Assembly (NCBI GenBank): GCA_018260615.1
Contig: JAGWDQ010000039.1
Coordinates: 1-10,813, forward strand
Direction of reading: 5' to 3'
Length of the DNA stretch: 10,813 bases
DNA from: Candidatus Altarchaeum sp.
GTDB lineage: Archaea > Altiarchaeota > Altiarchaeia > Altiarchaeales > Altiarchaeaceae
Both the position numbers and the translations under genes were made by a program. The notes beneath the pieces were generated by a model that did not search any database, was not told where the DNA came from, and worked only from the letters and a program-made list of their open reading frames with translations. Below, one piece after another: positions 1 to 10,366 of the stretch (position 1 is the first letter of the stretch; each line of letters begins with the position of its first letter).

Positions 1-3
1 TTT

Positions 4-60
4 TAAATCACCTCGCTTGTGCTCGGAGATTTTAAAAACTTCGTTTTTAAAATACCCTGT
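4..60. repeat. Dispersed REP/MITE-like palindromic element, copy 1
   Basis: TAAATCACCTCGCTT-GTG-CTCGGAGATTTT (4-33) matches 10647-10676 at 27/30 nt. It is followed by a perfect hairpin TTTTAAAAAC-TTC-GTTTTTAAAA (30-52) and by CCTGT, as in copy 2. It lies just downstream of the btuD-like stop codon. Confidence 0.75.
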
Positions 61-105: not shown

Positions 106-867
106 TTATAAAATTTTCGGAAGAATATATAAAAATTTATCCCTCTTAATTTCAACATCAATTCCATAGACATTTTTTATATTTTCTTCGGTTAATACCT
201 CTTCGGGATTTCCTGTTGCCAAAATTTTTCCTTCATCCATTAATATCAGGAAATCGCAAAACATCGCTGCCAGATTTAAATCATGCAAAGCACAAACAAC
301 CATTATTCCCTGCTTTGTCAGTTGCTTAAATATTTTTAATGTCTCAATCTGATATTTTATGTCAAGCTGTGATATTGGCTCATCTGCGAATAAAATTTTT
401 GGCTCCTGTGCTAATGCCTTTGCTATTACCGCCCGCTGTTTTTCTCCGCCTGAAATTTCGGTAATTGATTTGTCCTTAAATTTTAAGGTATCGGTAAATT
501 TTAATCCGTTTTCAACAATTTCCCTGTCCTTCTTGCTTTCCTTTTGGAGCCGTTTCAGATAAGGAATTCTTCCCAACATAACATAGTCAAACACAGAAAA
601 GGGATAAAACGATGAATTTTGCGGAACATAAGCAATGACTTTTGCGATTTCCGCATAAGAAATTTCTGCTATATTTTTATTTCCGATAAAAATTTCACCT
701 TTTGCGGGCTTTAAAATTTTACTCATAAGTTTCAGCAAAGTTGTCTTTCCTGCCCCGTTAGGTCCTATAATTCCGTAAAATTTTCCATCCTCTAATTTAA
801 AGGTTATTCCGTCAATAATTTTTGTATTATTGTATTTAAAATGTAAATCATTAACAACAATTTTCAT
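106..867 (-). CDS. btuD: Cobalamin/iron-chelate ABC transporter ATP-binding subunit (BtuD/FepC/FecE family), 253 aa
   Basis: Walker A GPNGAGKTT, Q-loop YVPQ, signature ISGGEKQRAVIAKALAQ, Walker B LFADEP, H-loop ALHDLNLAA, and the C-terminal GNPEEVLTEENIKNVYG typical of this family. B12 specificity is inferred from the cobO/btuF context. Confidence 0.9.
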   Translation of the reverse strand: MKIVVNDLHFKYNNTKIIDGITFKLEDGKFYGIIGPNGAGKTTLLKLMSKILKPAKGEIFIGNKNIAEISYAEIAKVIAYVPQNSSFYPFSVFDYVMLGRIPYLKRLQKESKKDREIVENGLKFTDTLKFKDKSITEISGGEKQRAVIAKALAQEPKILFADEPISQLDIKYQIETLKIFKQLTKQGIMVVCALHDLNLAAMFCDFLILMDEGKILATGNPEEVLTEENIKNVYGIDVEIKRDKFLYILPKIL

Positions 868-1328
868 TTTGTGTAAAATTTTATGTAAAATAATTTTTAT
901 GAGTAAAATTTCAAAAACCTTAGAGGTTTTTGCAACTTTTTTTGATGATAACTTTTTTTACTAATCGGGGCTCAAAAAAAGTTATATGCTAAATCATTAA
1001 CAACAATTTTCATTTTGTGCAAAATTTTATGTAAAATAATTTTTATGAGTAAAATTTCAAAAACCTTAGAGGTTTTTGCAACTTTTTTTGATGATAACTT
1101 TTTTTACTAATCGGGGCTCAAAAAAAGTTATATGCTAAATCATTAACAACAATTTTCATTTTGTGCAAAATTTTATGTAAAATAATTTTTATGAGTAAAA
1201 TTTCAAAAACCTTAGAGGTTTTTGCAACTTTTTTTGATGATAACTTTTTTTACTAATCGGGGCTCAAAAAAAGTTATATGCTAAATCATTAACAACAATT
1301 TTCATTTTGTGCAAAATTTTATGTAAAA
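844..1328. repeat. 146-bp tandem repeat, 3 full copies + 47-bp partial copy
   Basis: Units start TAAATCATTAACAAC at 844, 990, 1136 and 1282 (period 146). The copies are identical except T874 vs C1020/C1166/C1312. There are no unique spacers. Confidence 0.97.
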
Positions 1329-2354: not shown

Positions 2355-2382
2355 TTTAAATTTTATTTTTGTTTGCGTTTGT

Positions 2383-3852
2383 CTAAATTAAAAGCAAATA
2401 TTTTAAGGGAATCTTAATCACGAAGTCGTCAACTAACTCCAACTTACTGCTCCCAAAAACGAGCCCGTATTTTCCTTTAACTTTATTTTGCGTGTTCATC
2501 ACCTGCCTGATTTCTTCTTTATTAAATCCAACCTCAATAATAATTTTTGACTTGTCTTTTAGAGTCAAAATAAAATCTGCTCCCCCTTCGGAAATATCAT
2601 AAAACAAATCAACAGCCAGTTTATTCTTAAGACCTTCCACATAAATCAAAGCAAAATAATCTTCAAGCTTTTTTCCTTCTATTCCGGGCCAAAACTGATT
2701 ATCTAAAATTGCTGACCTCAAAGAGGATGTAATAAAAAGCAATTTCGGGGTCTTTCTTACCGGTCCATAAGTCATACCATAACTTTTAACTTTAATTAAA
2801 ACACCAGCCATTCCTAAGACCTCAATAAGCGAATCAAGGGTCTCAAATCTTTCTATTTTCAATGATTTTTTAATCTTTTCATAGCTAATAGTATCGGAGT
2901 TAGCCAAAAGATATAGTAAGTCGTAGATTTTTGCGATCGTCTGGGTTTTAAATTTTTCCATCCCTATAATATCTTTGGCAATAATGCTGTTTATCGCGGC
3001 CTTTATCATTTCCGTAGCTTTGACTTTGTTGGTAATTTTTATTGTAGAAGGTAATCCTCCATTTTCAAAAAATCCCTCTTCAACATTTGGCTGCAAATTA
3101 GCAAAAAATTTATCAATTTCCATTGCATATTGATTCAATCCAAGGTAAACTTCCCGGGCATCAGAAGAGTTAAAAATGATTTCATGAATTCCATCTTGCA
3201 AATTAGCAACAGGCAGTTTTTTATTGTATTTTAGAATTAAAAATTCACTAAACTTCATGGGAAAAACTTCCATAACGGTTGTCCTTCTATAAAGATCCGG
3301 ATTCATTCTCAAACTGATCGCCGAAGAACCAGTCGCAATAACAAATAAATTTTTATGTCCTTTTGTGCTGTCAAATAAAACCTTTAAGAAAAGTCCCCAG
3401 TTTTCATCGTAATGAACTTCATCAAGCAGAAGTAATAATTTTCTGTCTAATGAAACAAAGTTAAAGCCCTTTGCTTTTTCATAAAAATTAAAAAATTCAT
3501 TTAGTGAAATGTTGTTAAGTTTTAATTTACTTACATCTAAATAAAATATTTCTTCTAATTTGCCAATATTTTTTAAAATATTTTGATCATCCGGTTTTAA
3601 AAACCTTTCTATTTTATAAAGTTGCATTAATAATGTTGTCTTACCAGTTCCTCTAATTCCGGGTAAAATCCAGATTTTTTCATATTCTTCAAGTTGGTTT
3701 TCCAAAAATTTTTCAATAAGGATTTTAAATTTGGAAAAAATATCCCGGGTTGGCAAAAGATTTCTTTCTTCATCATAAATATATCCGTCTGCCTGCTGAG
3801 ATACAACATTCAACCAGTTTTGATAAAAAATTTTTATTTTTTCCTCATCCAT
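2383..3852 (-). CDS. AAA+ superfamily ATPase (AAA_14 + DUF4143-like C-terminal region, COG1373-type), 489 aa
   Basis: Walker A GIRGTGKTT, Walker B LLLLDEVHY, VIATGSSA, MEVFPMKFSEF, GGLP, and the C-terminal TPKLLFITSSL and GADFIL...IIEVG segments typical of this family. Confidence 0.85.
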   Translation of the reverse strand: MDEEKIKIFYQNWLNVVSQQADGYIYDEERNLLPTRDIFSKFKILIEKFLENQLEEYEKIWILPGIRGTGKTTLLMQLYKIERFLKPDDQNILKNIGKLEEIFYLDVSKLKLNNISLNEFFNFYEKAKGFNFVSLDRKLLLLLDEVHYDENWGLFLKVLFDSTKGHKNLFVIATGSSAISLRMNPDLYRRTTVMEVFPMKFSEFLILKYNKKLPVANLQDGIHEIIFNSSDAREVYLGLNQYAMEIDKFFANLQPNVEEGFFENGGLPSTIKITNKVKATEMIKAAINSIIAKDIIGMEKFKTQTIAKIYDLLYLLANSDTISYEKIKKSLKIERFETLDSLIEVLGMAGVLIKVKSYGMTYGPVRKTPKLLFITSSLRSAILDNQFWPGIEGKKLEDYFALIYVEGLKNKLAVDLFYDISEGGADFILTLKDKSKIIIEVGFNKEEIRQVMNTQNKVKGKYGLVFGSSKLELVDDFVIKIPLKYLLLI

Positions 3853-3889
3853 TTTAGATTTTATTATTTCTTTTAGATTATATTATTTC
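3852..3889. repeat. 19-bp tandem duplication directly upstream of the AAA+ ATPase start codon
   Basis: TTTTAGATTTTATTATTTC (3852-3870) and TTTTAGATTATATTATTTC (3871-3889) are 18/19 identical. A partial third echo AGATTCTATTA follows. Confidence 0.6.
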
Positions 3890-4008
3890 AGATTCTATTA
3901 TAGGTTATACTGTATTGCAATTCGGTCTCTATTGTAATAGATACTGTTCTTTATTTATTATGTTTTTATATCATTATTTATTATGTGTTTTGTGTTAAAT
4001 TTTTAAAT

Positions 4009-4980
4009 TTATTCATTATTTGTCCCGCAAACCCTGCAAAACGAATTTTTATGCTCAATTCTCGCTCCGCATCCTTTACATTTAATTTCGTCTTCTTTTG
4101 CTTCCTTTACATTTCCAAAAATTTCCTTAAAAATTTCATAATAATAAAGATGCTCTTTATCCCTTATAATTACTTCGTCTTCTTTTTCGTATGTCAATTT
4201 TCTTTGTATAAAATCCGCATCCTTAATTTTATCATCAAATATATCTGTAAGCATTGTCGTTCCGCTCCCATATTCGATAGGTGTCTTTTTTCTCCATACA
4301 AAGTCATTCGGAAGTAAATTTATGTATGCCTTTCTCAAAATCCATTTTCCAACATCGCCCTTTATTTTCATATCATCATCAATGGAAATCGCATATTTCT
4401 TTACTTCATCTGAAAGATAAGGAGTAAAAATTTTCATATTAAAAAACCTTCCGAAGTCGTTTGAAGAAAAGTGCATATTTTTCCACATTTTTTTCGCATA
4501 ATTCTCTCTTTCTTCCTTCTCCATTTTTATTAAAAAGTCATACCCGAAGAACAATTCATCCGCACCATCACCAGTCATCACACTATTTGTCCATTTCTTT
4601 GCAAATTTTAGGACTGTATATATCGCAACGCTATTCCTGATTTCCATCGGGTCAAATACGCCTAAAATTTTTATTGTTTCTCTTAAATTTTCAATTAAAT
4701 TTTCCTCGTCAATATTCAAAACATAATGTTCTATACCTAAAATCGGACACAACCTTTTAGCGTATTCCGCATCATCTCCGGTTTTAAATTTCAATGTCCA
4801 TGCCTTCATGTTGTTATTGTTTTTTGAAGCAATATAAGCCAAAACTGATGTATCAAGTCCCGCTGACAATAAAATCCCGTCACAACCATCGCTTATGTTT
4901 CTCTTTACTTCGTTTTCTAATAACTCCCTTAATTTTACAATTTCGGTTTCAATTCCCATTTTTTTATATCTAAAATCCAT
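4009..4980 (-). CDS. Asparagine-synthase C-terminal (synthetase)-domain-only PP-loop amidoligase with C-terminal Zn ribbon, 323 aa (start may be the second Met at 4959)
   Basis: PP-loop ILLSAGLDTSVLA, VMTGDGADELFFGY (AsnB SGEGADELFGGY-like), KWILRKAY...LPNDFVWRKKTPIEYGSG, and a C-terminal CKGC-x10-CRVC. There is no N-terminal Ntn glutaminase domain. Confidence 0.85.
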   Translation of the reverse strand: MDFRYKKMGIETEIVKLRELLENEVKRNISDGCDGILLSAGLDTSVLAYIASKNNNNMKAWTLKFKTGDDAEYAKRLCPILGIEHYVLNIDEENLIENLRETIKILGVFDPMEIRNSVAIYTVLKFAKKWTNSVMTGDGADELFFGYDFLIKMEKEERENYAKKMWKNMHFSSNDFGRFFNMKIFTPYLSDEVKKYAISIDDDMKIKGDVGKWILRKAYINLLPNDFVWRKKTPIEYGSGTTMLTDIFDDKIKDADFIQRKLTYEKEDEVIIRDKEHLYYYEIFKEIFGNVKEAKEDEIKCKGCGARIEHKNSFCRVCGTNNE

Positions 4981-5624
4981 TTATCCGAATAAATTTTAAT
5001 GTGTTCGGTAAAATTTTGGACATCGCTTTCAAGTATTTCAAGCCGCTTTTTAAATATTGGTCCGTCAATGACAAGCGTATGAAATTCTCCGTTTTCGCCG
5101 CATGGGTCTATGCCTGCTTCCGTTGTATCGCGGATAAAATTTTCCATTGTTTCCTTGTTTATGGTTCTTCCGGTTAAAAATTTTGCACCCTCAATGCAAT
5201 TAACAATTACAGCTTCAAATCCCAGAGACACAAATTTATTTAAAATTTCTTCCCTGTTTCTTTTCCACAGCGGTTCATAATAGTCCATGTTTAATTCCGC
5301 ACTTTTTTTCTTTATCCAGTCAAGATGTTCTTCCAGATCAATATCTCCTGCAATCATGCCAGTAATTCCTTTTTCCTTTAATTTCAAAACCTCTGAATTA
5401 AAGTCATTTTCGTAATTTTCCCATGATGTAACCTTCTGAATTACCGGAATTCTAATTGCTTCTGCCTGGGATTTTATTATTTCTCTGTTTATTCCGTGAC
5501 TTCTTCCGTCAACGGCAAAATTTAAGAGAAATTTGACATCCATGTTGTTTTTCATCGCCTCATAACATGCTAAATAACTGTCTTTTCCTCCGCTCCACGA
5601 ACAAAACCACATTTTATTTGGCAT
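4935..5624 (-). CDS. Diphthine--ammonia ligase-like (Dph6/DUF71/COG2102) PP-loop ATP-binding protein, 229 aa (start may be Met5 at 5612)
   Basis: SWSGGKDS PP-loop, RSHG, AGDIDLEEH, YEPLWKRNRE and GIDPCGENGEFHTLVIDGPIFK are family hallmarks. Confidence 0.92.
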   Translation of the reverse strand: MPNKMWFCSWSGGKDSYLACYEAMKNNMDVKFLLNFAVDGRSHGINREIIKSQAEAIRIPVIQKVTSWENYENDFNSEVLKLKEKGITGMIAGDIDLEEHLDWIKKKSAELNMDYYEPLWKRNREEILNKFVSLGFEAVIVNCIEGAKFLTGRTINKETMENFIRDTTEAGIDPCGENGEFHTLVIDGPIFKKRLEILESDVQNFTEHIKIYSDKWILDIKKWELKPKL

Positions 5625-5684
5625 TTTAAAAAATCTCGCAGATTTTTTAAAGATTGAAAATTCTCAAAGAATTTTCAGTATCTT
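5625..5684. repeat. Two adjacent perfect hairpins filling the cobO to Dph6-like intergenic gap
   Basis: TTTAAAAAATCT-CGC-AGATTTTTTAAA (5625-5651, 12-bp stem) and TGAAAATTCT-CAA-AGAATTTTCA (5655-5677, 10-bp stem, extendable by AAGAT/ATCTT). Confidence 0.85.
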
Positions 5685-5689
5685 AAATT

Positions 5690-6235
5690 TTAATATTCTA
5701 TTCCCTTTCTTCTTTCAGTTCCGTTATCGTAAGGATGCTTAACCTTTTCAATTTTACTCACATAATCCACAATTTCAATAAGTTCTTTCAGTTTTTCATC
5801 CGGACATCTTCCAGTCAGGATTAATTCTAATGTCTCTGGCTTTGAATTGAGCAAATCAAGAATTTCAGAAATGTTTAAATAGCCATCTCTTAAAGAGATT
5901 AAAATTTCATCCAAAATTAAGAGGTCATAATTCTTGGGATAAATTTCCTCCCCGATAAATTTTACCCCTTCCGGACAATCTCTTCTTGCATTTTTCGCTA
6001 ATTCGTCTTCGCTTTTGAAGGGATTAAGAACTTTGCAATATTTTGCATAAGCAAATACATCAACTCCAATTCCCTTCAGAATTTTAAATTCGGAATAAAA
6101 TTTTTCTATATCTTTATGAAAACTTATCCAGCAAACCCTTAAATTATTTCCTTTTGCTCTTACTGCCAGTCCGATTGCCGCTGTTGTTTTTCCTTTTCCA
6201 TCCCCAGTATAAATATGGGTCAAACCGTTTTCCAT
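5690..6235 (-). CDS. cobO: Cob(I)yrinic acid a,c-diamide / cob(I)alamin adenosyltransferase (CobA/CobO/BtuR type), ~181 aa from the likely start at 6235
   Basis: GLTHIYTGDGKGKTTAAIGLAVRA (inverted P-loop), YDLLILDE, LELILTGR and KHPYDNG...KGIEY. The ORF-track extension to 6388 overlaps the 88-aa ORF and lacks family motifs. The ATG at 6235 sits 10 nt after that ORF's stop. Confidence 0.9.
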   Translation of the reverse strand: MENGLTHIYTGDGKGKTTAAIGLAVRAKGNNLRVCWISFHKDIEKFYSEFKILKGIGVDVFAYAKYCKVLNPFKSEDELAKNARRDCPEGVKFIGEEIYPKNYDLLILDEILISLRDGYLNISEILDLLNSKPETLELILTGRCPDEKLKELIEIVDYVSKIEKVKHPYDNGTERRKGIEY

Positions 6236-6245
6236 TCTGATTTTT

Positions 6246-6512
6246 TTACTTTTGATTTTTATCATCCTTTTTATTTTTTGATTCGTCTGAAAGAAGCATT
6301 GACATATAAAAAGCAGCAACCGTATCGTTCTGTGCTTGAACAACATCTTCCTGAGTAAAATTTTTGCCTTCCTGCACTTTTGAAACAAACTCGCTAATAT
6401 TATTATGAGAAACCCGTAATGCCTGAACGACCTGTTTTGCTACTATCGTTTTAAATTTAGCGGATTCTTTTTCCTCATCATCTTCACATTCATTATCTAT
6501 TTTTTCCTCCAT
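6246..6512 (-). CDS. Hypothetical 88-aa soluble protein with an acidic N-terminus, embedded in the corrinoid operon
   Basis: The start overlaps the btuF-like 3' end by 16 nt and the stop lies 10 nt before the cobO start. It fills the gap exactly and has a natural-looking composition. I recognise no family. Confidence 0.7.
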   Translation of the reverse strand: MEEKIDNECEDDEEKESAKFKTIVAKQVVQALRVSHNNISEFVSKVQEGKNFTQEDVVQAQNDTVAAFYMSMLLSDESKNKKDDKNQK

Positions 6513-8533
6513 TTTAAGAAAACTATTAAAATTACTGCAAGGGCTATAAAAAGATATAAAAATAAATCATTATAATTTTTGTTAATGTCTTTTTTTGTTT
6601 CATTAGGTGTTTCGCCATAAGTTTCATTTTCAGTTATGTTATCTTTTTCAGCGGCAACTGAAATTTGTTCCGATGGAATATAACCTTCTTTTTCTGCTTT
6701 AAGAGTTAATGATGTCGTTGTAACTTTATATTCAATTTTTCCGTTATCGTTTGCTGTTTGTTCAACGCCGTTGATCGTAACTTTCGCGTTTGGAACCGGA
6801 TTTTTGTTTTCGCCAGTTACTGTGATAGTAATTGTATCCCTCTGCTTCACTTTTTCGGCAACATCTATTTTTAATTTTCCTATTGCTTTGACATCAAATA
6901 AAATGCTTGAGCCCTTGTAGTCATTTGCTGATGTAGAGGCATCTAAACCTGTTTGTATTATTTTAATTTGTTTTGTGACAATTCCATTTGCATCTGTCTT
7001 TAATTTTTCTCCGTAAATTTCAACTTCTGCATCCTGGACGGATTTTCCATCTTTTGTTGTTACTTTAAATTTAAATTCGTCTCCGTATTTCTCGCCTGAA
7101 ATCTTTGTTATGTTTAAAGTTCCAATATAAACATTAATTGTCTTTGTGAAATTTTTAAAGCCGGATTTTGAAATTGTTATTTCTGCACTTCCATAATCGG
7201 GAATTGTTAATGTTACATCTCCGTTTTCATCCGATTTAAATTTCCTTGCTTCGTTTTTAACTTTTATTGTTATCTCAACATCCTTAAAATTTCCACCTAA
7301 ATTTAATGTTTGTTTCAGACCAAAAATTTCTGAAATGTTAAAAATTTCCGGTGGAAAGACATTTTCTTTCGCATTCAATGGTTTGTTTTCGCTATCTGCA
7401 TAAACATATTTAGCGGGCGATGTTCCGTCCCCTCCTGAACTGCCATGTCCTGCAGAAATTTTTTCAGAAGATTTTTCCTTACATGTTCCGTTTTCACAAT
7501 ACTCTGTTTTACATTCTTTACCAAATACACAAATTTCATCATTTAATTTAAGACATATATGTATTGAAGAAATACATTTTCCTGATGTGCAATCAGCATT
7601 GTTTTCACAATATTTCGGAATATTTTTATATTGATATGAAATTATCATTCCCACAACACATTCCATAGCATCAATTACCCTCGGAGAATCCCTTGAAATA
7701 ATATCTTCGTTAATTTTATAAACATTATTATTTTTTACCGCTTTTAAAATTTTAAAATTAGGATTGTTTATTACTTCTCCATAATAATCAAATGAGTATC
7801 CTATATCTGGTGATGGATCTGAAACAATTATAATATCAGGGTCTCTGTGGATAAGTGTTTCAACAGAAACCGGTTGCCACTTATTTATATCAGAATAAGT
7901 ATTTATCCCGCCGGATGTTTCAATTATATCGTTTATAAAGGTGTTTTTTCCAGATACCCATAAAGGATTTATCCCTGCAATCTCTGCAACAGACGGAGTT
8001 GAAAAGATTAATGCTTTTTTTGTTTTCTTTACTTCTTCTGTTCTCTCTTTCATGTTGTTTATTAAATTTTCACCTTCATTTTTCTTTCCCAAATACTTGG
8101 CAATTGTTCTTATGTTGTAATACATTCCGTCAAAATTTTCAGATATATTAATTCTGATAATAGTAATATTTGCGTCCTGCAATAATTTAATATCATCCGG
8201 ATCTGTTAAATCATGAGCAAAAACCAAATCAGGTTTTAAGGAAATAATTTTTTCAATACTTGGAGTAACATAGCCACCAATTTTTGTTTTACTTTTTGCA
8301 TCTTCCGGATAATTACAAAATATTGTAACTCCTATAAGATAATCCTCCCCGTTTATAGCATAAATATCTTCTGTTATTGATGGTGATATCGAAATAACTT
8401 TTTCATAATGGACACATGAATTGTTTTTTAGATATGTTCCTTCATCACAGGTTATGTTTTCCCCCAATGAAATTTGAATAAATGCAAATACAATAAAAAT
8501 TCCAAATATTCCCAACAATAAATTTTTTCTCAT
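6497..8533 (-). CDS. btuF: BtuF-type substrate-binding protein fused to Cys-rich repeats, Ig-like stalk repeats and a C-terminal TM anchor, 678 aa
   Basis: N-terminal signal peptide. Residues ~44-298 carry KVISISPSITEDIYAI...IGVTIFCNYP...SIEKIISLKPDLVF...VSVETLIHRDPDII...SPRVIDAME (Peripla_BP_2/BtuF). These are followed by Cys-rich repeats, beta-rich repeats with [ST]D-x-NG-like turns, and the C-terminal LFLYLFIALAVILIVFL-KWRKK. Confidence 0.85.
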   Translation of the reverse strand: MRKNLLLGIFGIFIVFAFIQISLGENITCDEGTYLKNNSCVHYEKVISISPSITEDIYAINGEDYLIGVTIFCNYPEDAKSKTKIGGYVTPSIEKIISLKPDLVFAHDLTDPDDIKLLQDANITIIRINISENFDGMYYNIRTIAKYLGKKNEGENLINNMKERTEEVKKTKKALIFSTPSVAEIAGINPLWVSGKNTFINDIIETSGGINTYSDINKWQPVSVETLIHRDPDIIIVSDPSPDIGYSFDYYGEVINNPNFKILKAVKNNNVYKINEDIISRDSPRVIDAMECVVGMIISYQYKNIPKYCENNADCTSGKCISSIHICLKLNDEICVFGKECKTEYCENGTCKEKSSEKISAGHGSSGGDGTSPAKYVYADSENKPLNAKENVFPPEIFNISEIFGLKQTLNLGGNFKDVEITIKVKNEARKFKSDENGDVTLTIPDYGSAEITISKSGFKNFTKTINVYIGTLNITKISGEKYGDEFKFKVTTKDGKSVQDAEVEIYGEKLKTDANGIVTKQIKIIQTGLDASTSANDYKGSSILFDVKAIGKLKIDVAEKVKQRDTITITVTGENKNPVPNAKVTINGVEQTANDNGKIEYKVTTTSLTLKAEKEGYIPSEQISVAAEKDNITENETYGETPNETKKDINKNYNDLFLYLFIALAVILIVFLKWRKK

Positions 8534-8544
8534 CCTGTTCTTTT

Positions 8545-10260
8545 CTATTTTTCTATTATTATTTTTTCAATCAATTTTAGAATCTCAAGTAAATTTATGT
8601 CTTCTTTTCTTATACATTCTTCGGAATAATCGGAATAATTTTTTCCGGATAAATATTCCAACGCAGTTACAACATCAAATATGTCAATTAAATTATCATT
8701 ATCAAAATCACCTTCCACACACCATGAATAATTTTCCACACTCTTTCCTATTGTTGCATTAAGCAAAATAACATCTCCGTCCTCTGCACAATAATGTCCG
8801 CCGACACCGCACCAATTATTTGAATTTCCTCCGGGTCCCATACCTATTTCCATTGATGTCCAATTGGTTTCATTAATTTTGTGCATTTCAAATCCCCACC
8901 ACCAACTCCAATCAGATGGAGAGCAGGTATTGTTGATGCAATTTAAGAAGAATCCTGATGAATAATCAGTTGTTCCACTGAAATTTATTCCACTTGCATC
9001 TAAAATTTCCTTTCCGTTTGCATATTCATTAACTTTAACACATTTCTTTATGGTCTCATTATTTGGATATTTTATAACTAATCCAACGGTTATGTTTTTT
9101 GCTGGCGATTTACAAACTTTATTAACACCTTCATCAACACATTTGTTGCTTATACATTCTGAATTTGATAAACAATGACAAATGTTGGTACAGGAATAAT
9201 TAAAACCCGCAGAAATATCTTTATAATTTAGTCCCAAAGTGCAGGAATTATTATCTCCGGAATTTTCAGTTGCATTGATTGTTCCGTTAAATACCGCAAT
9301 ATCTATACTATTTTCACAAATTTTATTCGAAATGATTGTATTATTTGTAGATGAATTTATATAGATTCCATATTCAAAATTTCCCAAAATTGTATTATAA
9401 GCAATAGTATTATTTGTTACATTTTGGGGATAACACACATTATTTACGGGATGACATTTTGTCAAAAAAATCCCGTTTTTGTTGTTTTTTATTGTATTGT
9501 TATAAATTTCGTTAAAACCTGAACCATAATAAAGATATATTCCAAAATATGTGTTGTTATAAATAGTGTTATTTAAAATTTTGTTGTGATTAGGCCCTGC
9601 CCATCCAAAAATTATTCCCCACTTATTGTTGTAAAGATTATTGTTTCTTAATGTGTTATTTTGTGTTGCACTTCCATAAAATCCAATTCCTCCTTTGTTG
9701 TTATAACCGGTATTATTTTCTATTACATTGTTATTTCCAGGAGATGAATCTATTCCGTCAAGTTTTATTGAATAACATGTATTGTTTATTATTTTACTAT
9801 CGGATGCACCGGAAAGAGAAATTCCGCAGCTTGACATGTGATGAACCATGTTATTTATTATTGTATAATTTTTCATACTTCCGCCCATTGATAAAGGAAC
9901 AGGAATAATTCCATTGCTAAAATTACTTATTTCAAAATTTTTTATAGTGATATTTTCTTTATTATTTGTAATAATTCCAACAGTATACACATCTCCTAAA
10001 TAGTTAATTTCATGCCCTGTTAAATTGTATCCGTTTCCATCTAATATTATGTTATGTGCATTCACTATTAAACCATTTCCCTGACATGTTAAACTACAAT
10101 TCAAAACACAACTTTCATTAACATAATCTCCGCATTTATAAATTGTATTTGTATTTGCACCGATACATCCGCAGTCCGCATTTACATAAGATGCAAACAA
10201 AACAAATAAAATTCCGATTATTCCTGTTTCAATTGCCCCTTTTTTAAATTTTATATCCAT
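8545..10260 (-). CDS. Secreted surface protein: right-handed beta-helix (NosD/CASH-like) + Cys-rich linker + DUF4430/transcobalamin-C-terminal-like domain + dockerin-like tail, 571 aa
   Basis: Signal peptide ending ...YVNA|D; IILDGNGYNLTG and repeated I-x-NN-T/GI-x-L units. Residues ~389-500 read GFFLNCIN...WWWGF...HYCAEDGDVILL (DUF4430-like by eye), and residues ~514-571 read GDFDNDNLIDIFDVVTALEYL (dockerin-like). More than 20 N-x-S/T sequons. Domain calls are by motif recognition only. Confidence 0.8.
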   Translation of the reverse strand: MDIKFKKGAIETGIIGILFVLFASYVNADCGCIGANTNTIYKCGDYVNESCVLNCSLTCQGNGLIVNAHNIILDGNGYNLTGHEINYLGDVYTVGIITNNKENITIKNFEISNFSNGIIPVPLSMGGSMKNYTIINNMVHHMSSCGISLSGASDSKIINNTCYSIKLDGIDSSPGNNNVIENNTGYNNKGGIGFYGSATQNNTLRNNNLYNNKWGIIFGWAGPNHNKILNNTIYNNTYFGIYLYYGSGFNEIYNNTIKNNKNGIFLTKCHPVNNVCYPQNVTNNTIAYNTILGNFEYGIYINSSTNNTIISNKICENSIDIAVFNGTINATENSGDNNSCTLGLNYKDISAGFNYSCTNICHCLSNSECISNKCVDEGVNKVCKSPAKNITVGLVIKYPNNETIKKCVKVNEYANGKEILDASGINFSGTTDYSSGFFLNCINNTCSPSDWSWWWGFEMHKINETNWTSMEIGMGPGGNSNNWCGVGGHYCAEDGDVILLNATIGKSVENYSWCVEGDFDNDNLIDIFDVVTALEYLSGKNYSDYSEECIRKEDINLLEILKLIEKIIIEK

Positions 10261-10295: not shown

Positions 10296-10349
10296 ATTAT
10301 TTATATATTATTTTTATATATTATTATTTATTTATATTATTGGTTAATT
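10296..10349 (-). promoter_or_regulatory. Candidate archaeal-type promoter region for the corrinoid operon (reiterated TATA-like boxes)
   Basis: The minus strand reads AATATAAATA...AATATATAAAA...AATATATAAATA about 35-90 nt upstream of the ATG at 10260. The very AT-rich background lowers specificity. Confidence 0.35.
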
Positions 10350-10366
10350 TAACCAACTTAATATAA
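10350..10366. promoter_or_regulatory. Perfect 8-1-8 inverted repeat TTGGTTAA-T-TTAACCAA, candidate transcription-factor operator
   Basis: Exact dyad symmetry centred on 10358, in the intergenic region upstream of the operon's first gene. Confidence 0.55.

What the first reader, a model, noticed from the sequence alone, without database searches (positions are those of the whole stretch)
4009..10260. Candidate undescribed 'capture, repair, activate' corrinoid scavenging system
Seen: six tightly packed co-oriented genes (gaps or overlaps of 11, -16, 10, 65 and -46 nt) encode two large surface proteins, an orphan, an adenosyltransferase and two amidoligases, with the cognate ABC permease and ATPase downstream. 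Established: BtuFCD imports corrinoids and CobO/BtuR adenosylates them. Inference: a surface lectin-like/transcobalamin-like catcher hands corrinoid to a stalked BtuF, and imported, partly hydrolysed corrinoids are re-amidated and adenosylated. The usual salvage genes (cbiZ, cbiB, cobY/cobU, cobS, cbiP) are not in this window, so the module looks aimed at ring side-chain repair rather than nucleotide-loop rebuilding.
Basis: inference. Interest (0 to 1): 0.8.

Follow-up and report, generated by a model that had tools for sequence, protein, structure and literature searches.

The report
Archaeal vitamin B12 capture-and-salvage operon
A groundwater archaeon that fixes carbon with a B12-type cofactor but cannot build its ring carries one operon to catch, import and activate scavenged B12 precursors, including a surface protein with the fold of the B12-binding half of human transcobalamin and two ATP-using enzymes of untested function that probably restore amide groups on the ring.

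Summary
In detail: six co-oriented minus-strand genes with the stated spacings, then btuC and btuD.

The genome is Candidatus Altiarchaeum. I found no corrin-ring synthesis genes, CobQ/CbiA or CbiZ, but it has the corrinoid protein of acetyl-CoA synthase.

- **Capture:** supported. Residues 383-510 of the first protein have the transcobalamin beta-domain fold (Z 13.9, next unrelated 7.2).
- **Activate:** an ordinary CobA.
- **Repair:** partly known. The Dph6-like gene carries the DUF71-B12 signature predicted in 2012 to act in B12 salvage. I found no paper on its AsnB-like partner. That partner sits among cobamide genes in 39 of 81 copies compared, across archaea and bacteria. Four of those operons are headed by a cobalamin riboswitch.

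The chemistry is untested. This scan had already flagged the enzyme pair in at least 21 other genomes.

The claim that the module is separate from nucleotide-loop rebuilding is not supported. cbiB, cobD, cobU, cobT, cobS and cobC are in the genome, and cbiB-cobD follow btuD in relatives.

New here: a palindrome found exactly twice in the genome, upstream of this operon and of cobT.

Verdict: a new variant of a known kind.

The parts
10340..10356 (.). 17-nt palindrome TTGGTTAATTTAACCAA, 80-96 nt upstream of the operon start codon; candidate operator
   Evidence: The exact pattern TTGGTT-N5-AACCAA occurs only twice in the 2.23-Mb genome: here and 59-75 nt upstream of cobT on contig C144. In two same-genus genomes it occurs once each, upstream of the beta-helix gene. 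It is absent from 1.6 Mb of other fetched loci.
8545..10260 (-). Secreted 571-aa surface protein: signal peptide, parallel beta-helix, Cys-rich linker, transcobalamin-beta-like module and dockerin-like tail
   Evidence: Beta_helix 95 bits and NosD 81 bits. The N-terminal hydrophobic stretch is read directly. Only four full-length relatives were found, all Altiarchaeales, and three of them carry two copies of the C-terminal module. Dockerin similarity is weak (PDB phmmer E 0.3-0.6; no Pfam hit). Cohesin-domain genes exist in the genome.
8731..9114 (-). Transcobalamin beta-domain-like (DUF4430-like) module, residues 383-510 of the 571-aa protein
   Evidence: AlphaFold2 model from 51 sequences, pLDDT 88.6. 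Foldseek's top 18 matches are transcobalamin, haptocorrin, intrinsic factor and 3U7Z; best E 3.4e-6, TM 0.79 by target. VIA-align over 48,161 chains gives Z 13.9, 13.7, 13.6, 13.2 and 12.8 for those same five, then 7.2. There is no Pfam hit by sequence.
6497..8533 (-). BtuF-like substrate-binding protein on a Cys-rich linker and Ig-like stalk, with a C-terminal membrane helix
   Evidence: Peripla_BP_2 115 bits and CarboxypepD_reg 46 bits. NCBIfam ranks PGF-CTERM SBP (130 bits) above BtuF (92) above IsdE (76), all below their cut-offs. It is the only Peripla_BP_2 gene in the genome. The C-terminal hydrophobic helix followed by KWRKK is read directly.
6246..6512 (-). 88-aa ORF of unknown function, conserved within the genus
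   Evidence: No Pfam or NCBIfam family and no usable Atlas hit. tblastn finds it at 82% and 58% identity in two Altiarchaeum contigs, in one of them at a different place in the operon.
5690..6235 (-). CobA/CobO/BtuR-type ATP:corrinoid adenosyltransferase
   Evidence: PF02572 164 bits. TIGR00708 scores 128.5 bits, below its 167.75 cut-off. The P-loop GDGKGKTT is read directly.
4935..5624 (-). DUF71-B12 PP-loop ATP pyrophosphatase (paralogue of Dph6)
   Evidence: PF01902 164 bits; below the Dph6 equivalog cut-off (118 vs 197 bits). It has the motifs SGGKDS and ENGEFH-T, the DUF71-B12 signature of PMC3541065. The genome's true Dph6 (EGGEYE) is on contig C81.
4009..4980 (-). Glutaminase-less AsnB-like PP-loop enzyme with a C-terminal CxxC...CxxC zinc ribbon; overlaps the DUF71-B12 gene by 46 nt
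   Evidence: PF00733 140 bits; the AsnB equivalog scores 149 vs a 499 cut-off. It belongs to a family with 3169 homologues of about 320 aa. Invariant residues include SxGLDTS, FDPMEIRN, TGDGxDE and the four cysteines. It aligns to residues 208-511 of E. coli AsnB, PDB 1CT9.
2383..3852 (-). AAA_14/DUF4143 ATPase gene, an insertion in the operon and probably not part of the system
   Evidence: AAA_14 81 bits and DUF4143 31 bits. Window 2361-3890 corresponds to only 35 bp in the same-genus contig L104.
1332..2354 (-). BtuC-like FecCD permease
   Evidence: FecCD 332 bits; the best NCBIfam hit is BtuC PRK09535, 275 bits.
844..1328 (.). 146-bp tandem array (3.3 copies) repeating the btuC-btuD junction
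   Evidence: Tandem Repeats Finder: 99% matches, score 963. The same-genus relative has a single copy of the junction.
106..867 (-). BtuD-like ABC ATPase
   Evidence: ABC_tran 109 bits; the best NCBIfam hit is the corrinoid ABC transporter ATPase PRK09536, 245 bits.

Best explanation
This is the corrinoid (vitamin B12 family) capture, import and salvage operon of a Candidatus Altiarchaeum genome. The organism needs a corrinoid for its acetyl-CoA pathway, and no gene for making the corrin ring was found.

Proposed course, with my estimate for each inferred step:
1. A secreted beta-helix protein with a transcobalamin-beta-like module binds corrinoid at the cell surface. It may be held there by its dockerin-like tail (inferred, about 0.6).
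2. It passes the corrinoid to a BtuF-like binding protein. That protein stands on an Ig-like stalk and is anchored by a C-terminal helix (inferred).
3. BtuC and BtuD import the corrinoid (family assignment shown; substrate inferred from context, about 0.85).
4. CobA adenosylates it (family shown).
5. Two ammonia-dependent PP-loop enzymes, DUF71-B12 and a glutaminase-less AsnB-like protein, adenylate free carboxylate side chains of incompletely amidated or partly hydrolysed corrinoids and convert them to amides. This would yield cobyric-acid-level substrates in an organism without CbiA or CobQ (inferred, about 0.4).
6. The product feeds cbiB-cobD, which probably lie directly downstream across the contig break, and then cobU, cobT, cobS and cobC elsewhere in the genome.
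7. A genome-unique palindrome upstream of the operon and of cobT probably serves as a shared operator, in place of a riboswitch (inferred, about 0.5).
For: **Domain assignments:**

**No ring synthesis found.** Own genome (87% complete):
- a single TP_methylase match
- no CobQ/CbiA-type GATase_3 above 30 bits
- no CbiZ

In the phylum, CobQ is in 0 of 61 genomes and CbiC in 0 of 61.

**Corrinoid demand:** two CdhD-family genes and two B12-binding-domain genes.

**Loop-assembly genes present:** cbiB, cobD, cobS, cobC, cobU and cobT. In same-genus contigs the order is duf71-asnC-btuC-btuD-cbiB-cobD. The end of contig C66, which carries cbiB-cobD, overlaps the window's start by 28 nt.

**Capture module:** transcobalamin beta-domain fold.

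**DUF71-B12:** signature motif present. Homologues are fused to CobA, CobT, BtuD or BtuF domains.

**AsnB-like family:**
- 39 of 81 copies compared have cobamide genes within 7 kb.
- In the 80 fetched loci, DUF71 is nearby in 26, CobS 20, CobD 16, BtuD 16, CbiZ 13, BtuF 13, BtuC 13, CbiB 11, CobC 11, CobT 9 and CobU 8.
- Four Dehalococcoidia operons that hold both PP-loop genes are headed by a cobalamin riboswitch.
- In the phylum, orthologues are in 6 genomes, all among the 7 that have CbiB.
- Of 21 genomes where the pair is adjacent, none has CobQ. Fourteen have CbiB, and 10 of those have neither CobQ nor CbiZ.

**Palindrome:**
Against: - No activity has been measured for either PP-loop enzyme, and no ligand for either surface protein.
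- The AsnB-like family is not confined to B12 contexts. 42 of the 81 copies compared show no cobamide gene within 7 kb. Seven of 50 carrier genomes also have CobQ. A Nitrososphaeria clade places the gene behind gatCAB.
- Lacking CobQ is expected of any salvager, so that absence does not single out amidation.
- The transcobalamin-like module occurs in 37 of 61 genomes of the phylum, most without btuF nearby. Structural look-alikes are fused to SCO1/SenC copper proteins. PDB 3U7Z is annotated only as a putative metal-binding protein.
- The BtuF-like domain scores below the BtuF equivalog cut-off, and its best solved relative is labelled an iron-binding protein.
- Co-transcription is untested, and a 1.5-kb insertion plus a tandem array interrupt the operon.
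- The C39-C66 junction lies in a repeat that also matches two other contig ends.
Confidence: 0.7

Rival explanations
1. The PP-loop enzymes do not amidate the ring. Instead they supply CbiB with its substrate by a CbiZ-like remodelling route, as proposed for DUF71-B12 in 2012: removing or exchanging the nucleotide loop of cobinamide or pseudo-B12.
For: PMC3541065 reports that genomes with CbiB have either CbiZ or DUF71-B12. Here CbiB is present without CbiZ or CobQ. Ten of 14 CbiB-positive genomes with the adjacent pair likewise lack both. The pair is embedded among loop-assembly genes.
Against: CbiZ lies in the same locus as DUF71 in 9 of 13 CbiZ-containing loci. It lies directly upstream of DUF71 in a same-genus relative, so the two are not simple alternatives. 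By established knowledge of the family, PP-loop enzymes drive ligation through an adenylate, not amide hydrolysis. Seven of 21 genomes with the adjacent pair have no CbiB.
Confidence: 0.15
2. The transcobalamin-like module binds something other than a corrinoid, such as a metal ion or another cofactor, or is only a structural surface domain. On this reading the beta-helix protein is an adhesin or cell-envelope protein that happens to head the operon.
For: The module is in 37 of 61 genomes of the phylum, against 12 with FecCD and 7 with CbiB. In 11 of 21 loci of other genera it sits beside an ECF-type transporter of unknown substrate (DUF6580, CbiQ, fused ATPase). Atlas look-alikes are fused to SCO1/SenC. 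There is no sequence match to PF14478. The fold alone shows no function.
Against: Every strong structural match is a cobalamin-binding beta domain or its bacterial DUF4430 homologue, with a wide gap to the next fold. The gene is followed by btuF in the three same-genus assemblies that cover the junction and in another family, G052. In G029 the module gene is divergent from btuCD-cbiB-btuF-duf71-asnC-cobT. The conserved palindrome lies upstream of this gene and of cobT. No corrin-ring synthesis marker was found anywhere in the phylum, so wide distribution of a corrinoid catcher is plausible.
Confidence: 0.2
3. The AsnB-like protein is a housekeeping ammonia-dependent asparagine synthetase or another unrelated amidoligase, and its position in B12 clusters is incidental.
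For: It has the AsnB synthetase fold. About half of the copies compared show no cobamide neighbour. A Nitrososphaeria clade places it after gatC-gatA-gatB, genes of tRNA-dependent amide formation. About 20 of 50 carrier genomes show no CbiB, CbiZ or CobQ.
Against: The genome already has a full-length 629-aa AsnB. The gene overlaps DUF71-B12 by 46 nt here and is adjacent to it in many phyla. It lies inside riboswitch-controlled cobamide operons. B12 context is interleaved throughout the family tree, with at least 7 changes forced by well-supported branches, rather than confined to one clade. It tracks CbiB across the phylum.
Confidence: 0.07
4. The transporter imports heme or an iron-siderophore rather than a corrinoid.
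For: The binding domain's best solved relative is annotated as an iron-binding protein (100 bits). Heme-binding proteins score close to BtuF. All NCBIfam hits are below their cut-offs.
Against: BtuF outranks IsdE and the siderophore binders in NCBIfam. The permease and ATPase hit the corrinoid models best. The genes are interleaved with cobA and DUF71-B12 and followed by cbiB-cobD in relatives. Homologous btuFCD sets lie behind cobalamin riboswitches in Dehalococcoidia. This is the only transporter of the class in a genome that needs a corrinoid and shows no way to make one.
Confidence: 0.05

Closest known systems
BtuFCD importer with a BtuR/CobA adenosyltransferase (E. coli btuCED-btuF and btuR; Bacillus subtilis btuFCDR operon)
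   Same: It has a class III binding protein, a FecCD permease, an ABC ATPase and a CobA-type adenosyltransferase in one transcription direction.
   Different: There is no riboswitch. The binding protein is extended by a Cys-rich linker, Ig-like domains and a C-terminal membrane helix. Two PP-loop enzymes and a secreted capture protein are added.
DUF71-B12 subgroup of DUF71/COG2102 (de Crecy-Lagard et al. 2012, Biol Direct 7:32, PMC3541065)
   Same: It has the PP-loop and the ENGEFH motif in place of the EGGE-x-E motif of Dph6. It is clustered with btuFCD and cbiB, and the genome has a separate true Dph6.
   Different: The paper proposed a CbiZ-like role and reported anticorrelation with CbiZ in bacteria. 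Here CbiZ and DUF71-B12 often share an operon. The family also has a constant AsnB-like partner that the paper does not link to B12.
Beta domain of transcobalamin, haptocorrin and intrinsic factor, and prokaryotic DUF4430 (PDB 5NO0, 5NP4, 4KKJ, 2PMV, 3U7Z)
   Same: Same fold over about 100 residues, rmsd 1.6-2.0 A, Z 12.8-13.9. The PDB title of 5NP4 shows that the isolated human beta domain binds cyanocobalamin.
   Different: Sequence identity is only 12-21%. There is no Pfam PF14478 match and no alpha-toroid partner domain in this protein. The module is fused to a parallel beta-helix and a dockerin-like tail, and is duplicated in relatives.
Extracellular cobamide relay of Bacteroides thetaiotaomicron (BtuJ, BtuH, BtuG to BtuB, then BtuFCD; review PMC13616437)
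   Same: The logic is the same: a surface-exposed capture protein encoded with the importer hands cobamide on to the transporter (abstract).
   Different: The capture proteins are unrelated in fold. There is no outer membrane or TonB step. The host is an archaeon and there is no riboswitch control.
CbiA/CobB and CbiP/CobQ corrin amidotransferases
   Same: The proposed net reaction is the same: ATP-dependent conversion of corrin carboxylates to amides. There are two enzymes, as in the canonical pathway.
   Different: The folds are unrelated. Established knowledge of the two families is that PP-loop enzymes activate by adenylation, whereas CbiA/CbiP are P-loop enzymes that activate by phosphorylation. 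There is no glutaminase domain here, so free ammonia would be the donor. The activity is not shown.
Asparagine synthetase B family (E. coli AsnB 1CT9, beta-lactam synthetase, CarA)
   Same: The synthetase domain aligns over 284 profile positions at E 3e-40, with the PP-loop and the arginine of the IR(A/N)S motif conserved.
   Different: The N-terminal glutaminase domain is absent. The SGEGSDE motif reads TGDGADE. A C-terminal four-cysteine ribbon is added. The protein scores far below the AsnB equivalog cut-off.

Membership tests
DUF71-B12 subgroup (PMC3541065) | PP-loop SGGKD plus an ENGE(F/Y)H motif replacing the EGGE/D-x-E motif of Dph6 | tested here: met
   SGGKDS and ENGEFH-T are read in the translation. 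The second copy on C81 has EGGEYE.
DUF71-B12 subgroup (PMC3541065) | Physical clustering with B12 transport or cbiB genes, alongside a separate Dph6 in archaea | tested here: met
   It is flanked by cobA and btuCD, with cbiB next in relatives. Dph6 is on C81 at 225 bits.
Diphthine-ammonia ligase Dph6 | Score above the NCBIfam equivalog cut-off, and the catalytic Glu188 motif | tested here: not met
   TIGR03679 scores 118.4 bits against a 197.3 cut-off. His replaces Glu in the motif.
Asparagine synthetase B (glutamine-hydrolysing) | N-terminal class II glutaminase domain fused to the synthetase domain | tested here: not met
   The 323-aa protein aligns only to residues 208-511 of 1CT9. PRK09431 scores 148.8 bits against a 499 cut-off.
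Asn_synthase PP-loop superfamily (PF00733) | Synthetase domain with an SxGLDS-type PP-loop | tested here: met
   PF00733 scores 139.7 bits. SxGLDTS is invariant in 24 family members.
BtuF (vitamin B12-binding protein) | Peripla_BP_2 fold encoded with BtuCD-type permease and ATPase genes | tested here: met
   PF01497 scores 115 bits. FecCD and the ABC ATPase lie in the same operon.
BtuF (vitamin B12-binding protein) | Score above the BtuF equivalog cut-off | tested here: not met
   PRK03379 scores 91.8 bits against a 234 cut-off.
BtuF (vitamin B12-binding protein) | Binds cobalamin or other corrinoids | not testable with these tools
   This needs a binding assay. Only context supports it.
Transcobalamin beta domain / DUF4430 | The beta-domain fold | tested here: met
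   Z 13.9 with rmsd 1.9 A over 100 of 105 residues of 5NO0; Foldseek E 3.4e-6.
Transcobalamin beta domain / DUF4430 | Sequence membership in Pfam PF14478 | tested here: inconclusive
   There is no hit at E up to 10 for the module, and none among 50 remote homologues. Atlas features point to DUF4430 at a score of 0.85, which is only a lead.
Transcobalamin beta domain / DUF4430 | Corrinoid binding | not testable with these tools
   This needs a binding assay.
Dockerin | Paired calcium-binding loop-helix repeats recognised by Pfam, plus a cohesin partner | tested here: inconclusive
   One DxDxDN-type loop plus helix is read directly. PDB dockerins match at E 0.3-0.6, and there is no Pfam hit. Three cohesin-domain matches exist in the genome.
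CobA/CobO/BtuR adenosyltransferase | PF02572 domain with a P-loop | tested here: met
   164 bits over the full profile, with GDGKGKTT present. The TIGR00708 equivalog cut-off is not reached (128.5 vs 167.75).
Cobalamin riboswitch-controlled operon | An RF00174 aptamer in the leader | tested here: not met
   No Rfam match in the window at E up to 1, apart from a chance miRNA hit. Bacterial counterparts do have the riboswitch.

The most novel reading that the evidence does not exclude
The DUF71-B12 and AsnB-like PP-loop pair would be a glutaminase-free, adenylate-based route for amidating corrin side chains. It would stand in for CbiA/CobQ in corrinoid scavengers of many archaeal and bacterial phyla, letting them use cobyrinic-acid-level or hydrolysed corrinoids. 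In Altiarchaeum it would be wired to an archaeal surface relay built from a transcobalamin-beta homologue. The whole set would be controlled by a protein-operator B12 regulon (the TTGGTT-N5-AACCAA site shared with cobT) instead of a riboswitch.
Probability: 0.3. Interest if true: 0.8.

Novelty: new variant of a known kind. Interest (0 to 1): 0.6.

Why it matters
Altiarchaeum is a dominant carbon fixer in cold anoxic groundwater, and its acetyl-CoA pathway needs a corrinoid. None of 61 genomes of its phylum shows the two corrinoid-synthesis markers tested, CbiC and CobQ. Its primary production would therefore hang on scavenged corrinoids, and this operon would be the entry point.

The function of DUF71-B12 has been open since 2012. 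Seeing that it travels with a fixed AsnB-like partner, in genomes that keep CbiB but lack every known source of cobyric acid, gives a concrete two-enzyme assay to run.

A prokaryotic transcobalamin-beta module fused to a beta-helix offers a handle on how B12 carriers evolved.

The genome-unique palindrome shared with cobT is a testable lead to how archaea, which lack B12 riboswitches, regulate B12 genes.

Tried and rejected
Neighbourhoods came from the search for related loci, the genome search and my own ORF calling, BLAST clustering and Pfam scans of cluster representatives.
- **C-terminal module by sequence:** searches against Pfam and PDB gave nothing.
- **First structure model:** a four-sequence model was unusable (pLDDT 38.8) and I did not search with it. 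A 51-sequence alignment from the exhaustive protein search solved this.
- **The 88-aa ORF:** no family, no Atlas neighbour, and only a low-confidence helix. It stays unexplained.
- **Riboswitch in the window:** none.
- **DUF6580 and B12:** I tried to tie the DUF6580 ECF-type transporter, which sits beside the module in other Altiarchaeota, to B12. There was no PDB relative and no riboswitch in the three Chloroflexota loci found. Its substrate stays unknown.
- **Rejected: 'never together with CobQ' for the AsnB-like family as a whole.** Seven of 50 carrier genomes have CobQ. It holds only for the 21 genomes where the pair is adjacent.
- **Rejected: DUF71-B12 as a plain CbiZ substitute**, because the two share operons.
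- **Rejected: loop-assembly genes are absent from the system**.
- **Not done:** a base rate for CobQ among matched genomes without the pair.

Full report
**What is in the window**

The window is an entire 10,813-bp contig (G000:C39) of a 2.23-Mb, 33% GC assembly that is 87% complete. Close homologues of its proteins are named Candidatus Altiarchaeales or Altarchaeum in public records. This agrees with earlier notes on the genome.

All substantial genes lie on the minus strand. The six genes of the finding have the stated coordinates and spacings of 11, -16, 10, 65 and -46 nt. Pfam and NCBIfam assign them as follows:

| Gene (minus strand) | Assignment |
|---|---|
| 10260-8545 | Parallel beta-helix/NosD protein |
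| 8533-6497 | Peripla_BP_2 binding protein with CarboxypepD_reg domains |
| 6512-6246 | 88-aa ORF, no family |
| 6235-5690 | CobA/CobO adenosyltransferase |
| 5624-4935 | Diphthamide-synthase-like PP-loop protein |
| 4980-4009 | Asparagine-synthase synthetase domain, no glutaminase domain |

A FecCD permease and an ABC ATPase follow. Their best NCBIfam hits are the corrinoid models.

The finding omits two things. A co-oriented AAA_14/DUF4143 gene (2383-3852) is a 1.5-kb insertion compared with a same-genus contig. A 146-bp tandem array lies between btuC and btuD.

**What the host can and cannot do**

The genome has two CdhD-family genes, which encode the corrinoid iron-sulfur protein of acetyl-CoA synthase. 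It also has two proteins with B12-binding domains.

I found no means of making the ring:
- one TP_methylase match only
- no CobQ/CbiA-type amidotransferase
- no CbiZ

Across 61 genomes of the phylum, CobQ and CbiC are each found in none.

The nucleotide-loop genes are present: cbiB and cobD on C66, cobS on C96, cobC and cobU on C79, and cobT on C144.

In same-genus contigs the order is duf71, asnC-like, btuC, btuD, cbiB, cobD. Contig C66 ends 150 bp upstream of cbiB, and its last 28 nt overlap the first bases of the window. That overlap lies in a repeat that two other contig ends also match.

That is an effect of the assembly, so the conclusion drawn from it does not hold.

**The capture protein**

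Residues 383-510 of the 571-aa protein match no Pfam family or solved structure by sequence. Full-length relatives exist only in Altiarchaeales. Three of them carry the module twice.

An exhaustive search found 66 remote homologues. None of the 50 I scanned matches DUF4430 in Pfam. A model built from 51 sequences is confident (pLDDT 88.6).

Two independent fold searches agree:
- Foldseek's top 18 matches are beta domains of transcobalamin, haptocorrin and intrinsic factor, plus the bacterial DUF4430 structure 3U7Z. The best E is 3.4e-6.
- An exhaustive alignment to 48,161 chains gives Z 13.9, 13.7, 13.6, 13.2 and 12.8 for these same five, then drops to 7.2.

The 'transcobalamin-like' reading is therefore supported at the level of fold. 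Ligand binding is not shown.

The protein has an N-terminal signal-type hydrophobic stretch and no C-terminal anchor. Its last 55 residues contain one dockerin-type loop and helix, which is weak evidence. The genome does encode cohesin domains.

**How far the module's B12 link reaches**

The module occurs in 37 of 61 genomes of the phylum.
- It precedes btuF in the three same-genus assemblies that cover the junction and in G052.
- In G029 it is divergent from btuC-btuD-cbiB-btuF-duf71-asnC-cobT.
- In G030 it is adjacent to a DUF71 gene.
- In 11 of 21 loci of other genera it sits beside a DUF6580 membrane protein, with a CbiQ-type T component in 6 loci and a fused double ABC ATPase in 7.

That last layout is an ECF-type transporter. 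I could not tie its substrate to B12.

Genomes with FecCD (12) and genomes with Pfam-detectable DUF6580 (6) do not overlap. This fits two alternative importers served by one kind of catcher, but the numbers are small.

**The binding protein**

The BtuF-like domain (residues 46-276) is followed by a Cys-rich linker, about three Ig-like domains and a C-terminal hydrophobic helix with a basic tail. It is the only Peripla_BP_2 gene in the genome.

By sequence it cannot be told from heme binders with certainty. Context argues for a corrinoid.

**The two PP-loop enzymes**

The 229-aa protein has SGGKDS and ENGEFH-T. This is the signature that de Crecy-Lagard and colleagues used in 2012 to separate DUF71-B12 from Dph6. 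The true Dph6, with EGGEYE, is on C81. Longer homologues are fused to CobA, CobT, BtuD or BtuF domains. This part is a known prediction, not an undescribed family.

The 323-aa partner belongs to a well-conserved family of about 320 residues (3169 homologues; 573 confirmed genome loci). Invariant features are the PP-loop, FDPMEIRN, TGDGxDE and a four-cysteine ribbon. I found no paper that links this family to B12.

In the 80 best loci I clustered the neighbouring genes and annotated cluster representatives. The recurrent neighbours are:

| Neighbour | Loci (of 80) |
|---|---|
| DUF71 | 26 |
| CobS | 20 |
| CobD aminotransferase | 16 |
| BtuD | 16 |
| BtuF | 13 |
| CbiZ | 13 |
| BtuC | 13 |
| CbiB | 11 |
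| CobC | 11 |
| CobT | 9 |
| CobU | 8 |

Further points on the family:
- Four Dehalococcoidia operons that hold both PP-loop genes begin with a cobalamin riboswitch.
- In a tree of 81 family members (the 80 loci plus the window's own gene), the 39 with B12 context are interleaved with the rest. The bacterial sequences form one clade nested among archaeal ones.
- Within the phylum, orthologues occur in 6 genomes, all among the 7 that have CbiB.

**What the pair does**

Of 50 genomes that carry the family, 7 also have CobQ. In none of those 7 is the gene adjacent to DUF71. Of the 21 genomes where the pair is adjacent:
- none has CobQ
- 14 have CbiB
- 4 have CbiZ
- so 10 keep CbiB without any known source of its substrate, cobyric acid

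The window's genome is of this kind.

Both enzymes belong to families that adenylate a carboxylate and pass it to ammonia. This is established for AsnB and Dph6. The only free carboxylates in the pathway are the corrin side chains. I therefore favour ammonia-dependent amidation of incompletely amidated or hydrolysed corrinoids, at about 0.4.

The 2012 alternative, a CbiZ-like role, is weakened because CbiZ shares an operon with DUF71 in 9 of 13 loci and in a same-genus relative.

Three caveats apply:
- Absence of CobQ is expected of any salvager.
- Half of the family shows no B12 neighbour.
- One Nitrososphaeria clade places the gene after gatCAB.

**A candidate operator**

The palindrome TTGGTTAATTTAACCAA lies 80-96 nt upstream of the operon's start codon. 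The exact pattern TTGGTT-N5-AACCAA occurs only twice in the genome. From base composition I expect about 0.3 chance occurrences (my own estimate).

The second copy lies 59-75 nt upstream of the cobT start codon on C144. In two same-genus genomes the pattern occurs once each, upstream of the beta-helix gene. It is absent from 1.6 Mb of other fetched loci.

This supports the beta-helix gene as the head of the operon, and co-regulation with cobT. The regulator is unknown.

**Verdict**

- 'Capture' is strengthened.
- 'Activate' is ordinary.
- 'Repair' is a plausible but untested extension of a 2012 prediction.
- The contrast with nucleotide-loop rebuilding is wrong.

This scan had already flagged the PP-loop pair in at least 21 other genomes. 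The Altiarchaeum-specific parts are the beta-helix/transcobalamin-beta protein, the stalked BtuF and the operator.

Noticed in passing
window 10340-10356; G000:C144:2260-2276: The exact pattern TTGGTT-N5-AACCAA occurs only twice in the 2.23-Mb genome, upstream of this operon and upstream of cobT. It is unique in two same-genus genomes, again upstream of the beta-helix gene. It is a candidate operator of an archaeal B12 regulon.
   Followed up: partly
window 2361-3890: The AAA_14/DUF4143 ATPase gene is a 1.5-kb insertion between the AsnB-like gene and btuC. The same-genus contig L104 has 35 bp at this place.
   Followed up: partly
window 844-1328: A 146-bp unit is repeated 3.3 times at 99% identity and reiterates the btuC-btuD junction. 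The relative L104 has a single junction.
   Followed up: partly
window 1-60 and G000:C66 end: The contig starts in a repeat element that is shared with the ends of C66, C63 and C127. Synteny with relatives suggests that C66 (cbiB, cobD) joins here.
   Followed up: partly
L142, L143, L146, L147, L153 and 8 of the AsnB-like loci (e.g. L062:4444-5016); G000:C145:5597-6124: A DUF4443 regulator with a PH0730-like winged-helix N-terminus recurs beside both the transcobalamin-like module genes and the AsnB-like genes in several phyla. It is a possible corrinoid-responsive regulator.
   Followed up: no
L138-L156 (other Altiarchaeota genera): Small signal-peptide proteins that consist of the transcobalamin-like module plus a C-terminal membrane helix or a dockerin-like tail sit beside an ECF-type transporter (DUF6580, CbiQ, fused double ATPase) of unknown substrate.
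   Followed up: partly
61 genomes of the phylum: CobQ and CbiC were found in none of 61 genomes. CbiB is in 7 and FecCD in 12. The phylum as sampled appears unable to make corrinoids, although Altiarchaeales are described as acetyl-CoA-pathway autotrophs.
   Followed up: partly
L019, L021, L022, L024, L033: In Nitrososphaeria the AsnB-like gene directly follows gatC-gatA-gatB, in genomes that also have CobQ. This may be a different role or a different ammonia supply for the same family.
   Followed up: no
L018:2964-3728 and 8 other AsnB-like loci: A radical SAM protein of about 254 aa recurs in these cobamide clusters. In one Altiarchaeum contig it lies between btuF and cobA. Its function was not examined.
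   Followed up: no
window 7440-7620 and 9120-9200: Both surface proteins carry a similar Cys-rich linker of the type C-x-S-N-S-x-C-x-S-N-K-C between their main domains.
   Followed up: no
P0191, P0193, P0195, P0196: DUF71-B12 homologues are fused to Peripla_BP_2, ABC ATPase, CobT and CobA domains. These are gene-fusion links to B12 uptake and salvage.
   Followed up: no
G000:C53:16848-17636: There is a second glutaminase-less AsnB-like gene (388-aa open frame). Its relatives score about 110-130 bits against the family profile in many genomes of the phylum. It is a distinct paralogue of unknown role.
   Followed up: no
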